In this document: positions 18,505-21,778 of the stretch, one piece after another | How the letters are laid out: the number at the start of each line of letters is the position of its first letter | How positions within the stretch are numbered: the first letter of the stretch is position 1 | Assembly: GCA_963815095.1 (NCBI GenBank) | Contig: CAWFFH010000004.1 | Coordinates: forward strand, 64,001 to 128,000 | Direction: 5' to 3' | From: Candidatus Bathyarchaeota archaeon | Lineage (GTDB): Archaea; Thermoproteota; Bathyarchaeia; Bathyarchaeales; Bathycorpusculaceae | DNA length: 64,000 nucleotides | Program-made: the position numbers and the translations under genes | Notes under the pieces: generated by a model | Database searches by the model: none | Told to the model about the DNA's origin: nothing | Seen by the model: only the letters and a program-made list of their open reading frames with translations

Positions 18505-19482
18505 ATGAACCTGAAGAGCAGCATTATCAATTTTATTCGAGGATGGCTTCCCCAAGAACCAATTTTGCCCGCCCACGCTCTGCCAAACCAAAAGAAAACA
18601 GGCAGAATACGATTAATTTTGCTAAACGTGTTGATATGTTTTCTAGCAATTGCTGGTTTGTTGTCAGCTATGATACTTATTGACTCATGGATAAAACTTG
18701 TCCTTTTAGGCTCAATTTTGGTTGGCGGATTAGTTTGGCGTTTCACTCATGGAAACGTAAAGAAACCCCTAAAATTTTTTGTAATTGTAGTCCTTATTTT
18801 CTCGATAAGTTTTACTGCTGTTGAATTCAATTTGACTTGGAATGCGGGTTATCCGCCTACTTATACATTAGCTCAACCGGGTATCACTATTTCAAAAGCA
18901 AATATTCTAAACACCTCTCTAACCCAGATTGTGCAAGACATCGAAAGAACACCTGCCTACGAGCTTCTAACAATCCAATTTGGAGCTACGACCGCTGAGA
19001 CAATCAAATTGGACACAGCATTTCCTTCTCGTGGTGGATTGGTCCAAGTGGATTTTTACGGAAAGAACTCAGACGCATATTTTTACTTCAGTTCAAGTTC
19101 TGGTAATCCTTACCATGTGAACGTTGGCAGTTCCAAAACTACTTTGACCACTAGATTCCATCCGCAAGCACAGCCAGCCAAAGACTCATTTTCTCAAATT
19201 GATGACTTAGGTCTTCAATGGTTCTATGATCGCTCCTTAGAGATAGCCCAAAACAGAACAGGCAGCATTCCAAAAATCGATGCGCTGTCCTTCACGATGA
19301 CATTTGAAGACAATGGCTACATTGGCTTTGACAGAACACACATAAGCTATGAAGGCATAACAGTACAAATCACCGGAAGTCAACAAACAATCTTGGCAGA
19401 TGGAAGTATAACTGGTCACGGGGTTCTAATTGCAGATTTTGAGCCCAACGGAACCCTAATTTACATGTCACAACCACAATAA
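18505..19482 (+). CDS. Membrane protein with N-terminal IRGWLPQEP motif, three TMs and an extracytoplasmic domain
   Basis: Translation and hydropathy read by eye. Confidence 0.75.
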   Translation: MNLKSSIINFIRGWLPQEPILPAHALPNQKKTGRIRLILLNVLICFLAIAGLLSAMILIDSWIKLVLLGSILVGGLVWRFTHGNVKKPLKFFVIVVLIFSISFTAVEFNLTWNAGYPPTYTLAQPGITISKANILNTSLTQIVQDIERTPAYELLTIQFGATTAETIKLDTAFPSRGGLVQVDFYGKNSDAYFYFSSSSGNPYHVNVGSSKTTLTTRFHPQAQPAKDSFSQIDDLGLQWFYDRSLEIAQNRTGSIPKIDALSFTMTFEDNGYIGFDRTHISYEGITVQITGSQQTILADGSITGHGVLIADFEPNGTLIYMSQPQ

Positions 19483-19640
19483 CCAAATCTTCTTGGGTAT
19501 CAAGGACGATTTTAGAAAGAATTCTTATCTTCATCAGTCAATCCTCACTTTTCCGATTCTCACCATGACTCAATTGTAAAACTTGTTAATGTCCAGTTCC
19601 AAACTCTTTTCTCTATCACTTTTTAGACTATATGAAAGAC

Positions 19641-19775
19641 GAGTGAGAAAGTAACTCTTGCTGGCTAGTCCGGTGCCTTCTTGGCCCTTGCGGCCGATTT
19701 TTAGACTGGGCTTGACCTGAGCTGCTATAGAACTGGGCATTCGCCCGTATGAGAGATTGCAGCCTGAAAGCCAGC
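19641..19775 (+). ncRNA. Predicted bridge/seek RNA of the IS110 element (ends approximate)
   Basis: Two internal loops whose guides match the flanks (CGGTGCCTTCT, TTTTTAG) and the element ends (ATGAGAG, partial TATAGaaCT). Confidence 0.8.
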
Positions 19776-19791
19776 AGGAGAAAGAAAAAAA

Positions 19792-20838
19792 ATGGTGAGA
19801 TATGTAGGAGTAGATGTTGGCAAAGCCAAATGCAGAGCAGCAATAATGAATCAAACCGGCGCCATCGAGAGCGAATTCTTCTTTGAAAACAACACTAAAG
19901 GAATAGAGTCTTTGACGTCTATGCTAACTGTTGAGGATCAGGTTGTTATGGAATCTACAGGGAATTTGTGGCTAAGCATATACGATGCATTGGATAATAG
20001 AAGCATTAAGGTAGTGCTGGCTAATCCATTGAAGACTAAAGTGATAGCTTCAGCGAAAATAAAAACTGATAAGGTGGATGCTAGGATTTTGGCGCATTTG
20101 CTGAGAGCTGATCTTGTTGCTGAAAGCTATGTTCCGCAAGGAAGCATACGTGAAATGCGAGGTTTAGTTAGGCATAGGCTGAGCTTGGTTAGAATGCGCA
20201 CGGCTATAAAGAACAAGGCACATGCAATCGTTGACAAGTATAGTTATCGTTGTGAATTCTCAGATATGTTCGGTAAAGGTGGAATTGCTTGGATGAGGTC
20301 ACTGATACTTAATGAGCTTGATAGACTGATTTTGGAAAACCATCTTTCGCTGATTGAATCTATTAACTTGCAGGTCGGGATGGTGGATAAAGCTATTCGA
20401 AAAATCGCTTGTGAGGATGAGGATGTTCGGTTGCTACTTAGCTTGACTGGTGTTGATGTTTATGGTGCATTGTTGATTCATAGTGAAATTGGTCCGATAA
20501 CGCGGTTTAGTAGTTATAAGAAGTTGATTTCTTGGGCTGGTTTGGCTCCGTCGGTGCATCAATCTGGGAATGTTGAGTATACTGGTAGGATTACTAAGCG
20601 TGGTTCTAGCTTGTTGAGGTGGGTTATGGTTGAGGCTGCGAGGACTGCTGTGCAGTATCATGAGAAATTGGCTGGGTTTTATGAGCGTGTGAGGGCTAGG
20701 CGTGGTGATCAGAAGGCTGCTGTTGCTGTTGCTTGTAAGATGCTTAAGATTGTTTGGTTCATGCTAAGTAGGCGTGAGGTCTATAGCTGTGCTAATACGA
20801 GGCGTTATGGAGAAAAGCTAAAAAAGATTGGTGCGTAG
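19792..20838 (+). CDS. IS110-family DEDD recombinase/transposase
   Basis: YVGVDVGK, VVMEST, KTDKVDA (DEDD) and GLAPSVHQSG (catalytic Ser region); SD AGGAG. Confidence 0.96.
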   Translation: MVRYVGVDVGKAKCRAAIMNQTGAIESEFFFENNTKGIESLTSMLTVEDQVVMESTGNLWLSIYDALDNRSIKVVLANPLKTKVIASAKIKTDKVDARILAHLLRADLVAESYVPQGSIREMRGLVRHRLSLVRMRTAIKNKAHAIVDKYSYRCEFSDMFGKGGIAWMRSLILNELDRLILENHLSLIESINLQVGMVDKAIRKIACEDEDVRLLLSLTGVDVYGALLIHSEIGPITRFSSYKKLISWAGLAPSVHQSGNVEYTGRITKRGSSLLRWVMVEAARTAVQYHEKLAGFYERVRARRGDQKAAVAVACKMLKIVWFMLSRREVYSCANTRRYGEKLKKIGA

Positions 20839-20975
20839 TTTGGTTTACTGGCTTTCAGGATAAGTTGGTCGCTGGCTTAGAGAACCGTCTTTCATGAGAG
20901 AAGGCATCGAAAAAACCGCTGATTAATTCAATGACCTTTTTAACGTAGGCTGTTATAATTCTCTTTTGTCAAGAA

Positions 20976-21778
20976 ATGTTGACTTGGATTAGTCAAGATT
21001 TCTTTACGAATAATCTTTTATGTAATCCAAATTTGTTATTAATTATGAGCAATTTAACTAAGAGTTTCTCGTTGCTAATTATACTAGTTTTAGCAGCGTC
21101 AATAGTGATCATAGTTAAACCTTCAAGTGCTCAAACAGCCACTTCTATGCCTTCAAATATTCCTATACCTGTAAGACCAGAGTTTACCTTACAACTTATT
21201 GGTCCGCCTTTTGTTGAGAATACCACTTATTCATTAGACCCCAATACGGGACAAATTGTTGCAAACATTGGCTACACTAACCCATTCAGCATTGTTGAAA
21301 TAATTATCAAGAATCAACCTTTTACTCCATTTAACGACAATCAAGGTAATCCTATTTCAATGTTCTATAATGTTCAAGTGGCAGTTCATAACCAAACAGA
21401 TAGCTGGATTAGTCTTTATGACCCGATTCTGGCGACCTTGCACCAAGCACTGCTGATTCTGATTACACCAATATATCATTGTGGTTGAATAACGGTCCGC
21501 TTCCTGTCGGAACTACTAATATTGATGTTCAAGTCGAGGCATTCATAGGTTATGTTCATAAAAGTAATGAGGGATATCTTGCGGGTTGGGTATTTACTGG
21601 TGAATCAAACGGTTGGAACACGCAAACAGTAACTGTACCTTCTAACACTCCCTTAAGTGTTAATTCACCAAACACAACTAACTCAATTGGCAACCTAATC
21701 ACTATACCTTTGAGTACATTAATTGCGATTTTTACAATATTCTTAACCATTATCGTTGTTCTGGCACTTGCTTTTTAG
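20976..21778 (+). pseudogene. Frameshifted secreted/surface protein with C-terminal TM anchor
   Basis: ORFs 20976-21488 and 21479-21778 join if one base is added at GACCCGATT (about 21424); signal peptide, PxRPEFT motif, C-terminal TM. Confidence 0.6.

What the first reader, a model, noticed from the sequence alone, without database searches (positions are those of the whole stretch)
19620..20909. Archaeal IS110/IS1111 element with a readable bridge RNA
Seen, target loop: CGGTGCCTTCT (19671-19681) is the reverse complement of the right flank AGAAGGCATCG (20899-20909, one mismatch), then inner stem TGGCC/GGCCG, then TTTTTAG (19698-19704), identical to the left flank plus core (19620-19626). 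Seen, donor loop: stem GCTGC/GCAGC encloses TATAGAACT (partial match to bottom-strand left end TATAGTCT), inner stem GGGC/GCCC, and ATGAGAG (19749-19755), identical to the right end plus core. Known: IS110 bridge RNAs program recombination through these two loops, with a CT core in IS621. Here the CT core is on the strand opposite the transposase, and the RNA lies upstream despite IS1111-type sub-terminal IRs. Inference: an intact archaeal programmable recombinase.
Basis: partly seen in the sequence, partly recalled or inferred. Interest (0 to 1): 0.85.

Follow-up and report, generated by a model that had tools for sequence, protein, structure and literature searches.

The report
Archaeal IS110-family element with bridge RNA
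This is a small jumping gene in an uncultured archaeon that carries its own guide RNA, whose two loops spell out both the element's ends and the DNA site where its copies landed; it is a new archaeal example of the known bridge-RNA recombinases, not a new kind of system.

Summary
Window 19627-20898 is a 1272-bp IS110-family insertion sequence. The genome holds 4 copies that differ by 0-1 bases. It encodes a 348-aa DEDD/Ser transposase. Upstream lies a 124-nt RNA, 19656-19779, that folds into an outer stem enclosing two internal-loop hairpins.

They covary with them across about 30 distinct homologous RNAs from the same archaeal genus: own guide against own flank gives 6.2 and 7.2 contiguous nt, other elements' guides 1.7 and 1.4, and 0 of 20,000 permutations reach the observed value. 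The donor loop behaves the same way. Uninterrupted target sites exist in sister genomes.

The host is archaeal, and the closest relatives lie in Bathyarchaeia MAGs.

The "core on the opposite strand" is the guide order already published for IS1111-type seekRNAs, and IS1111-type elements with an upstream non-coding region are a published exception. A haloarchaeal plasmid element has the same architecture.

No circle junction was found, and the only RNA support is one metatranscriptome contig.

Verdict: a real, probably active bridge-RNA element; a new member of a known kind; moderate interest.

The parts
19620..19626 (+). Left half of the target (TTTTT) plus core dinucleotide AG
   Evidence: All 4 copies share CTTTTTAG and differ further upstream. 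It is identical to the 3' strand of the target loop.
19627..19631 (+). Left terminal extension ACTAT (5 nt; 7 nt if the core is counted)
   Evidence: Positions 2-6 after the core (CTATA) are complementary to the donor-loop 5' strand, and this covaries in homologues.
19632..19641 (+). Left sub-terminal inverted repeat ATGAAAGACG. It may also act as a TATA-like element for the RNA (inference).
   Evidence: Reverse complement of 20886-20895. TATGAAAG is invariant in 14 of 14 homologues and lies 26-30 nt upstream of the outer stem.
19656..19779 (+). Bridge RNA (covariance-model match, 124 nt): an outer stem enclosing a target-binding hairpin and a donor-binding hairpin
   Evidence: Fold; consensus structure; model R1 scores 122 bits; pair counts.
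19675..19681 (+). Target loop, 5' strand GCCUUCU: complementary to the top strand of core + right flank (AGAAGGC)
   Evidence: The same relation holds in 12 of 13 dereplicated homologues that have a right end.
19698..19704 (+). Target loop, 3' strand UUUUUAG: identical to left flank + core, so complementary to the bottom strand
   Evidence: Of 24 dereplicated homologues, 20 match at least 5 contiguous nt, with a median of 7.
19726..19733 (+). Donor loop, 5' strand UAUAGAAC: UAUAG is complementary to left-end CTATA
   Evidence: five left-end variants, each with its matching guide.
19748..19758 (+). Donor loop, 3' strand UAUGAGAGAUU: AUGAGAG is identical to right end + core
   Evidence: The core letters AG or TG follow the flank core in 10 of 11 distinct homologues.
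19792..20838 (+). Transposase/recombinase, 348 aa; DEDD = D8, E54, D93, D96; Ser258-Gly259
   Evidence: PF01548 4.6e-28 and PF02371 1.2e-21; NF033542 at 243 bits. The alignment to IS621 was read against the catalytic residues named in PMC11208158.
20847..20853 (+). Conserved word ACTGGCT (GCTGG(C/T) in homologues) just after the stop codon; role unknown
   Evidence: Alignment of 12 right ends.
20886..20895 (+). Right sub-terminal inverted repeat CGTCTTTCAT
   Evidence: 9-13 bp repeats in homologues.
20896..20898 (+). Right terminal extension GAG (3 nt)
   Evidence: CATGAG is invariant in 12 of 12 right ends.
20899..20905 (+). Second copy of core AG plus right half of the target (AAGGC)
   Evidence: All 4 copies share AGAAGGC. 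One copy then lacks ATC in frame, so this stretch is target, not element.

Best explanation
Window 19627-20898 is an autonomous, probably still mobile, RNA-guided insertion sequence of the IS110 family in a Bathyarchaeia-type archaeon.

Components. The left end encodes a roughly 124-nt bridge RNA and the rest encodes the DEDD/Ser recombinase.

Proposed mechanism.
- After excision to a circle, the right and left ends abut as ...CATGAG-AG-ACTATA... (inferred).
- The donor loop reads this junction. [quoted passage not shown] - The target loop reads the 12-bp site TTTTT-AG-AAGGC in the same way. [quoted passage not shown] - Strand exchange at the 2-nt core inserts the element with the core on both sides. 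The junction anatomy is shown; the chemistry is inferred from IS621.

Target. In this genome the site is the coding sequence for ...LLFRRH... at the end of C-terminal membrane anchors of surface proteins. All four exact sites are occupied.

Architecture. It is a mixture. The ends (10-bp sub-terminal repeats with 7/3-nt extensions) and the guide order (top-strand complement first) are IS1111-like. The position of the RNA (upstream) and its two simple internal loops are IS621-like.
For: Element and copies
- There are 4 copies with 0-1 differences over 1272 bp and unrelated flanks beyond the 12-13-bp site.
- The flanking words are target, not element. One copy has an in-frame 3-nt difference in its right flank.
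- The uninterrupted word CTTTTTAGAAGGC occurs at 67 places in 47 of 120 same-genus genomes. Of the 20 places I fetched, 8 sit in intact ORF ends reading TM helix-LFRRH(R/Q)(K/R)...stop.
- G000 itself has no exact empty site: 8 hits at 1 mismatch against 8 for the control. Its 27 other anchor-type tails found by my regex are at least 2 mismatches away.

Protein
- PF01548 + PF02371 and NF033542.
- D8, E54, D93, D96 and S258-G259 align with D11, E60, D102, D105 and S241-G242 of IS621.

RNA structure
- 28 consensus pairs, 8 of them with compensatory changes, in 14 sequences.
- In 30 distinct sequences, 94.4% of cells pair against 88.5% in shuffles. 15 pairs change on both sides against 5.9 (0 of 500 shuffles reach it). 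Slid controls pair at most 43.3%.

Guide-flank covariation
- Left: 24 dereplicated pairs; own mean 6.17 contiguous nt against 1.74 in 526 cross pairs; 0 of 20,000 within-core permutations reach the observed sum.
- Right: 13 pairs; own mean 7.23 against 1.38 in 150 cross pairs; 0 of 20,000.
- About 13 different 3' guides are seen.

Donor side
- Left ends CTATA, CCTTA, CTTTA, GTTTA and TTTTA are paired with guides UAUAG, UAAGG, UAAAG, UAAAC and UAAAA.
- The core in the donor 3' strand follows the flank core in 10 of 11.

Same architecture elsewhere
- A Halanaeroarchaeum plasmid element (46.5% identity) has the same layout, with 9-nt and 7-nt guide matches in the same order.

Weak hint of expression
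- One 151-nt contig of an RNA library covers 19676-19825 with 2 other letters and 1 inserted letter. No other part of the element is covered in that run.
Against: - No direct evidence of the RNA's ends or abundance. The RNA-library contig may be DNA carry-over, and it runs into the coding sequence.
- No circle junction and no empty-site joint in the 4 runs laid. All four are contigs, which cannot show rare forms.
- Misses in the covariation set. The right flank of L048 matches its guide by 0 nt at the junction. L130, L133, L134 and L147 match their left guide by only 2-3 contiguous nt (2, 5, 6 and 7 of 8 positions respectively). Several of these are broken copies.
- The donor 5' strand needs a 1-2-nt bulge, and its core letters do not follow the core in TG-core elements.
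- The elements are kin, so the permutation figures overstate independence. Distinct specificities number about 13 on the left and 7 on the right.
- Alignment A3 was fitted to the model's structure, which biases its pair counts towards that structure.
- The 13-mer target occurs only about twice as often as its reversed control in the genus (67 against 32 by my count of the table).
- Rfam has no matching family, so the RNA is named by anatomy only.
Confidence: 0.88

Rival explanations
1. Site choice is made by the protein alone, through the sub-terminal repeats and a protein-read target. The upstream structured RNA would only be a 5' leader that regulates transposase expression.
For: The outer stem's 3' strand overlaps a GGAG 12 nt before the ATG in the window copy. 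The sub-terminal repeats and CATGAG are highly conserved. There is no direct RNA-protein or RNA-DNA evidence here.
Against: Loop strands change together with both flanks and with the left end across about 13 specificities, while the stems stay constant. A leader has no reason to copy its insertion site. The GGAG overlap is not kept in homologues.
Confidence: 0.04
2. The shared flanking words belong to a longer element. The 'guides' would then be internal repeats of the element's own ends rather than a read-out of a target.
For: All 4 copies share 8 nt on the left and 7-15 nt on the right beyond the proposed ends. G000 has no empty exact site.
Against: The joined word is found uninterrupted inside intact ORF ends in sister genomes: 8 of the 20 places examined. 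One copy's right flank differs by an in-frame 3-nt gap while the element itself is identical. Homologues with other guides sit in other words.
Confidence: 0.02
3. The element is a recent but now immobile passenger. The copies would have spread by duplication or by a helper, and the RNA or protein is no longer functional.
For: No circle junction or polymorphic empty site was seen. Many same-genus relatives are broken or are solo RNA remnants.
Against: Four copies lie at four unrelated loci with 0-1 differences. The 348-aa frame is intact and all five catalytic residues are present. The guides still match their flanks perfectly over 7 nt on each side. A biofilm metagenome holds a roughly 97% variant at yet another site with the same right flank.
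Confidence: 0.1
4. [quoted passage not shown]
For: The RNA is upstream and has two simple internal loops, as in IS621 (PMC11208160, passages).
Against: [quoted passage not shown] This holds in all homologues where both sides could be read. The 10-bp sub-terminal repeats are far longer than the 2-3 bp reported for the IS110 group.
Confidence: 0.03

Closest known systems
IS621 / IS110-group bridge recombinases (Durrant et al. 2024, PMC11208160; Hiraizumi et al. 2024, PMC11208158)
   Same: Both have a DEDD RuvC-like domain plus a Tnp domain with a catalytic Ser-Gly. Both encode the RNA in the left end, upstream of the recombinase. Both RNAs have two internal loops, one for the target and one for the donor, and a 2-nt core is included in the pairing and duplicated at both junctions. 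The targets are repeated host sequences.
   Different: The proteins are only distantly related (E = 7.5e-15, 58 bits). The strand order in each loop is reversed. The sub-terminal repeats are 10 bp, not 2-3 bp. The core is AG or TG on the transposase strand (CT or CA on the other strand). The two hairpins are closed by a common outer stem. The host is an archaeon.
IS1111-family elements and their seekRNAs (ISEc11, ISKpn4, ISPa11, IS4321/IS5075; Siddiquee et al. 2024, PMC11187229)
   Same: Sub-terminal inverted repeats with 7-nt left and 3-nt right extensions. A transposase of 330-350 aa with the motif GL-P----SG (GLAPSVHQSG here). The top-strand complement lies 5' of the bottom-strand complement in the RNA.
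   Different: The non-coding region and RNA are upstream (165 nt) rather than downstream (60 nt). The transposase is only 27% identical to that of IS4321, over residues 118-331. The donor guides sit in a simple internal loop. According to the Durrant passages, many IS1111 RNAs hold them in a multiloop.
Published exceptions: ISMtsp17 (IS1111-type with an upstream non-coding region), ISHvo10 and ISAcp5 (long regions at both ends) (PMC11187229, section 6)
   Same: They combine IS1111-type ends with an upstream non-coding region. ISHvo10 carries a haloarchaeal name.
   Different: I could not compare sequences. None of these elements is in the collections at hand, and the supplements were not open. 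The section I read does not describe their RNAs.
IS110-family element on Halanaeroarchaeum sulfurireducens plasmid pHSR2-01 (NZ_CP008875.1, CDS WP_050049435.1)
   Same: It is the closest named relative in the plasmid collection (46.5% identity). It has the same layout: core TG, a 5-nt left and a 3-nt right extension, sub-terminal repeats and an upstream RNA. Its 5' strand GUCUAAACA is complementary to the right flank, and its 3' strand GGCCUUG is identical to the left flank.
   Different: Only a single copy was examined. The upstream region is longer (198 nt). The RNA matches model R1 only weakly (7 bits, E = 1.2). It is annotated only as 'IS110 family transposase'.

Membership tests
IS110 family (bridge-RNA-guided DEDD recombinases) | N-terminal DEDD RuvC-like domain and C-terminal Tnp domain | tested here: met
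   PF01548 at 98.4 bits (cut-off 29), PF02371 at 77.3 bits (cut-off 21.3). NF033542 at 243 bits (cut-off 140).
IS110 family (bridge-RNA-guided DEDD recombinases) | Catalytic D, E, D, D and Ser(-Gly) present | tested here: met
   D8, E54, D93, D96 and S258-G259 align with the IS621 residues. The residues are named in PMC11208158 (passages).
IS110 family (bridge-RNA-guided DEDD recombinases) | Site-specific insertion with a 2-nt core at both junctions and no longer duplication | tested here: met
   Four copies lie in the same 12-bp word with AG on both sides. The uninterrupted word holds one AG.
IS110 family (bridge-RNA-guided DEDD recombinases) | Non-coding RNA with one loop complementary to the target and one to the donor, covarying with them | tested here: met
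   (structure). (covariation; the misses are listed in the Against line).
IS110 family (bridge-RNA-guided DEDD recombinases) | The RNA is made and bound by the recombinase; a circular intermediate forms | not testable with these tools
   Only contigs of public runs were available. One RNA-library contig covers 19676-19825 and no joints were found.
IS1111 group | Sub-terminal inverted repeats of 7-17 bp with about 7-nt left and 3-nt right extensions | tested here: met
   A 10-bp repeat, with 5 nt + the 2-nt core on the left and 3 nt on the right. Homologues have 9-13 bp repeats.
IS1111 group | Top-strand complement 5' of bottom-strand complement in the RNA | tested here: met
   The criterion comes from PMC11187229.
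IS1111 group | Transposase of 330-350 aa with GL-P----S(t)G | tested here: met
   348 aa, with GLAPSVHQSG at residues 250-259.
IS1111 group | Long non-coding region and RNA downstream of the transposase gene | tested here: not met
   The left non-coding part is 165 nt and holds the RNA. The right part is 60 nt.
IS1111 group | Transposase related over its full length to that of IS1111 | tested here: inconclusive
   Only IS4321 was available as a stand-in. It is 27% identical over residues 118-331 and the N-terminus was not aligned by BLASTP. No tree was made.
IS110 group in the narrow sense (IS621-like) | Bottom-strand complement first, and no or only 2-3-bp sub-terminal repeats | tested here: not met
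   The order is reversed and the repeat is 10 bp.

The most novel reading that the evidence does not exclude
An archaeal lineage of bridge recombinases, in Bathyarchaeia and haloarchaea, with a hybrid architecture: IS1111-type ends and strand order combined with a compact IS621-like two-loop RNA upstream.

The RNA would be driven by an archaeal promoter that lies inside the element, with the left sub-terminal repeat doubling as the TATA box. It would not depend on a promoter rebuilt across the circle junction.

The lineage has been naturally reprogrammed to a dozen or more targets within one genus. In this genome it has adapted to the conserved coding sequence of C-terminal membrane anchors, and it supplies a substitute basic tail (…LFR-LYERRVRK-stop), so insertion costs the host gene little.

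Solo RNA remnants in sister genomes might still guide recombinases in trans.
Probability: 0.25. Interest if true: 0.6.

Novelty: new member of a known kind. Interest (0 to 1): 0.4.

Why it matters
It gives a clean natural series of reprogrammed guides in archaea: about 13 left and 7 right specificities on one conserved scaffold. The scaffold is short (124 nt) and the recombinase small (348 aa).

It shows that RNA position and guide order are separable characters within the IS110 family. That bears on how the IS110 and IS1111 groups diverged.

It is also a candidate tool for archaeal genetics, and one more orthologue for bridge-recombinase engineering.

It does not change the known mechanism.

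Tried and rejected
- Rfam, all families at E up to 10 over 19000-21500, gave only three chance-level snoRNA/miRNA matches and none over the RNA.
- Public runs: 20 runs were listed and all that I laid were contigs. There were no joints, no circle junction and no empty-site bridge. Parts without cover say nothing.
- An exact-repeat scan for sub-terminal repeats in 33 distant loci gave mostly chance pairs. I did not use it to class them.
- I tried to fix the ends of multi-copy bacterial relatives (Acidobacteriaceae, Gemmataceae and Bryobacterales sets). Their ends are longer and more complex and I did not resolve their guide geometry. I therefore claim only that model R1 finds a similarly placed upstream RNA in them: 22 matches at E up to 1, all on the transposase strand and all upstream.
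- L053 (Halobacteria MAG): the RNA is found (E = 7.5e-7) but its ends could not be fixed from a single copy.
- I made no transposase tree with IS110 and IS1111 references, because no IS621 sequence was at hand as a usable record. Group placement rests on anatomy and on pairwise scores.
- A sigma-70 promoter scan was not run, since it does not apply to archaea. The TATA reading is inference only.
- A possible RBS occlusion by the outer stem was considered and dropped, because it is not conserved.
- Supplementary files were not opened. The ISfinder-wide tables and trees of PMC11187229 and PMC11208160 may already list relatives of this element or archaeal bridge RNAs.
- Literature searches were (listings and abstract starts only). 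'Bathyarchae' has 0 occurrences in bioRxiv 10.1101/2024.06.21.599552. In these I saw no description of bridge RNAs of Bathyarchaeia elements, but this is a narrow search.
Full report
**What is there.**

The only long frame is 19792-20838 (+), 348 aa. It carries the two Pfam domains of IS110-family transposases: PF01548 at 4.6e-28 and PF02371 at 1.2e-21. It also passes NCBIfam NF033542, 'IS110 family RNA-guided transposase', at 243 bits against a cut-off of 140.

Aligned to the solved IS621 recombinase (E = 7.5e-15), D8, E54, D93, D96 and S258-G259 fall on the DEDD residues and the catalytic Ser-Gly. Hiraizumi et al. name these as D11, E60, D102, D105 and S241-G242 (PMC11208158, passages).

**Copies and ends.** The window's genome (2.69 Mb, 9 contigs) holds four copies. 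Over 19627-20898 (1272 bp) they differ by 0, 1 and 1 bases from the window copy.

- To the left they share only CTTTTTAG.
- To the right they share AGAAGGC(ATC)GAAAA. One copy lacks ATC.
- Beyond these words the flanks are unrelated.

In three of the four copies the left flank is the end of a long ORF. Read across the joined flanks, it encodes a hydrophobic helix followed by LLLFRR(H)RK and a short tail. The missing ATC is therefore an in-frame His codon of a paralogue, not part of the element.

The three interrupted proteins have different ectodomains. One has a NosD-type beta-helix (9.3e-17), one a sub-threshold Ig-like match, and one has no match.

**Empty sites.**
- G000 has no uninterrupted exact site: 8 hits at one mismatch against 8 for the reversed control.
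- 27 other anchor-like tails found by my regex are 2-7 mismatches away from the 12-nt site.
- In the genus, the uninterrupted 13-mer occurs at 67 places in 47 of 120 genomes. By my count of the table the reversed control occurs 32 times.
- Of the 20 places fetched, 8 lie in intact ORF ends of the same kind (for example ...VLLFRRHRKTAMLSK-stop). Another 7 lie in a different conserved locus, and 5 are miscellaneous.

This fixes the ends at 19627 and 20898, with the dinucleotide AG present once in the empty site and on both sides of the element.

**The RNA.** The left non-coding part (19627-19791) folds into three parts:
- a 12-bp outer stem, 19655-19666 with 19769-19780;
- a first hairpin with an internal loop, GCCUUC(U) opposite UUUUUAG;
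- a second hairpin with an internal loop, UAUAGAAC opposite UAUGAGAGAUU.

The z-score is only -2.6. The case for the structure rests on relatives.

Protein search found relatives in 14 of 36 other genomes of the same genus, and in 0 of 24 genomes of the eleven other families of the order.

A scan of species-representative genomes kept 80 of 130 relatives. The ten loci at 57-75% identity all come from MAGs titled Bathyarchaeia, Bathyarchaeota, Bathycorpusculum or, in the NCBI wording, Nitrososphaerota.

Fourteen upstream regions align well. RNAalifold gives the same five helices: 28 pairs, 8 of them with compensatory changes.

A covariance model built from them (R1) finds the RNA in 17 of 120 genomes of the genus. 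On the 32 matches (30 distinct rows) the counts are as follows:
- 94.4% of cells pair, against 88.5% in shuffles;
- 15 of 28 pairs change on both sides, against 5.9 in shuffles, and 0 of 500 shuffles reach this;
- slid controls pair at most 43.3% of cells.

That alignment was fitted to the model, which favours the structure somewhat.

**Guides and flanks.** In the window copy:
- The 5' strand of the first loop is the reverse complement of core + right flank (AGAAGGC).
- The 3' strand is identical to left flank + core (TTTTTAG).
- In the second loop, the 3' strand AUGAGAG is identical to right end + core.
- The 5' strand UAUAG is complementary to left-end CTATA.

I read the same four relations in every relative whose ends lie in the locus. 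Examples of left flank | right flank, with the 3' guide and 5' guide:
- GAAGTAG | AGTAGTC, with GAAGUAG and GACUACU (L014, L044, L045);
- TTGCTG | TGCTGGAA, with UUGCUG and UUCCAGCA (L046, L051; L047's 5' guide differs by one letter);
- GTTGTTG | TGTTCTACCAC, with GUUGUUG and GUGGUAGAACA (L124);
- GATACTG | TGTTAAGT, with GAUACUG and ACUUAACA (L049);
- GGATGTG | TGCATAAGGA, with GGAUGUG and UCCUUAUGC (L054).

Scored as contiguous identity from the core outward:
- Left: 24 dereplicated left pairs give a mean of 6.17 (median 7), against 1.74 for 526 cross pairs. 0 of 20,000 shuffles within core classes reach the observed sum.
- Right: 13 right pairs give 7.23, against 1.38 for 150 cross pairs. 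Again 0 of 20,000.

Rows dropped:
- For the left test, 4 rows whose guide my pattern could not parse and 4 duplicates.
- For the right test, every row without a recognisable right end in the locus and 2 duplicates.

Misses:
- The right flank of L048 scores 0.
- On the left, L130, L133, L134 and L147 score 2-3 contiguous.
- Several of the new loci are broken or solo remnants.

On the donor side, five left-end variants carry the matching guide. The core letters in the donor 3' strand follow the flank core in 10 of 11 distinct rows. Mean pairing of the 5-nt donor guide is 4.0 of 5, or 4.4 with G-U.

The elements are kin, so these figures overstate independence. The number of distinct specificities, about 13 on the left and 7 on the right, is the fairer measure.

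**Mechanism.**

Shown here:
- the anatomy of the junctions;
- the conserved structure;
- the four complementarities and their covariation;
- the intact catalytic residues;
- near-identical copies at unrelated loci.

Inferred from IS621 and the seekRNA work:
- a circle with the junction ...CATGAG-AG-ACTATA...;
- a recombinase tetramer holding the RNA;
- strand exchange at the core.

Inferred from spacing only:
- The invariant TATGAAAG of the left repeat lies 26-30 nt upstream of the outer stem in all 14 aligned elements.
- This is where an archaeal TATA box would sit for a transcript starting at the stem.

One RNA-library contig (151 nt; 2 other letters, 1 inserted) covers 19676-19825 and nothing else of the element. 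This is a hint at most.

**Comparison with what is known.**

Durrant et al. (PMC11208160, passages) state three things:
- IS110-group elements have the RNA in a long left end and only 2-3-bp sub-terminal repeats.
- IS1111-group elements have it in the right end, with 7-17-bp repeats.

Siddiquee et al. (PMC11187229, passages and section 6) state:
- The terminal extensions are 7 and 3 bp.
- The transposases are 330-350 aa and carry GL-P----S(t)G.
- A few IS1111-type elements have the non-coding region upstream (ISMtsp17) or at both ends (ISHvo10, ISAcp5).

The present element has IS1111-type ends, motif, length and strand order. It has an IS110-type position of the RNA and two simple internal loops.

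The protein is about equally far from both references:
- IS4321: 27% identity over residues 118-331, E = 6e-15;
- IS621: 58 bits.

Its nearest named relative in the plasmid collection is a haloarchaeal element (46.5% identity). On inspection that element has the same layout and the same strand order, with 9-nt and 7-nt matches to its flanks.

R1 also finds full-length matches upstream of the gene, on its strand, in 22 loci of 33-40% relatives. These are mostly bacterial, plus one Halobacteria MAG. I could not fix their ends, so their geometry is open.

Archaeal IS110 recombinases as such are known: 662 in 2,835 archaeal genomes, in several clades mixed with bacterial ones (bioRxiv 10.1101/2024.06.21.599552, passages).

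**Host.** The genome's SSU rRNA is best matched by the archaeal model within its Rfam clan (1486 bits). It lies on contig C3, which also carries two copies of the element. The association with an archaeon therefore does not rest on binning alone.

**Verdict.** The element is a new archaeal member of the bridge-RNA/seekRNA-guided IS110 family. Its combination of characters is already hinted at in print. It is well suited as a natural reprogramming series, but it is not a new mechanism. Activity and RNA production remain to be shown.

Noticed in passing
window 19618-19653, and the same place in the copies on G000 C3 and C4: In 3 of 4 copies the interrupted ORF runs on in frame into the left end and stops at a TAA inside it. 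The protein now ends ...LLLFR-LYERRVRK in place of the native basic tail ...LLLFRR(H)RK.... The element thus supplies a substitute positively charged tail.
   Followed up: partly
window 19483-19626: The window copy is the only one of the four that is not at the end of a long ORF. The frame that reads ...SLSLFRRHRKNR-stop across the joined flanks is open for only 24 codons and follows the stop of ORF 18505-19482. It looks like a remnant of an anchor-coding end.
   Followed up: no
window 20847-20853; right ends of L014, L015, L044-L050, L054, L124: A conserved GCTGG(C/T) lies just after the transposase stop codon. It is the same word as the 5' strand of the RNA's outer stem. Its role is unknown; it could be a protein-binding site or an alternative pairing partner.
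   Followed up: no
L135-L138, L142-L144 (same-genus genomes): These are solo or decayed copies of the RNA, scoring 29-71 bits with R1, with no intact transposase frame behind them. L137 carries the same guides and the same left flank as the window element, in another species.
   Followed up: partly
L014 1690-1740; L044, L045 right flanks: The target of the GAAGTAG|TAGTC elements is one arm of an inverted repeat (GAAGTAGTCG ... CGACTACTTC). This is a hairpin-type repeated sequence, reminiscent of the REP and attC targets of bacterial relatives.
   Followed up: no
L152, L154, L163, L165, L167, L168, L171: Seven of the 20 uninterrupted 13-mers examined lie in one other conserved locus (...GGGGAATCCAA-site-TACATTAC...). 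It is not an anchor-coding end. I did not look at what it is or whether the element ever lands there.
   Followed up: no
G022, G025, G004, G015, G026 (loci L017-L021, L029): The same genus holds a second, only 32-38% identical lineage of IS110-family transposases. Model R1 does not match its loci at E up to 1.
   Followed up: no
window 19100-21400 in run X5: A biofilm metagenome holds a roughly 97% variant of the element, with 20 base differences listed. It shares the right flank up to 20915 and then diverges into different DNA, so it is a further insertion site of the same specificity.
   Followed up: no
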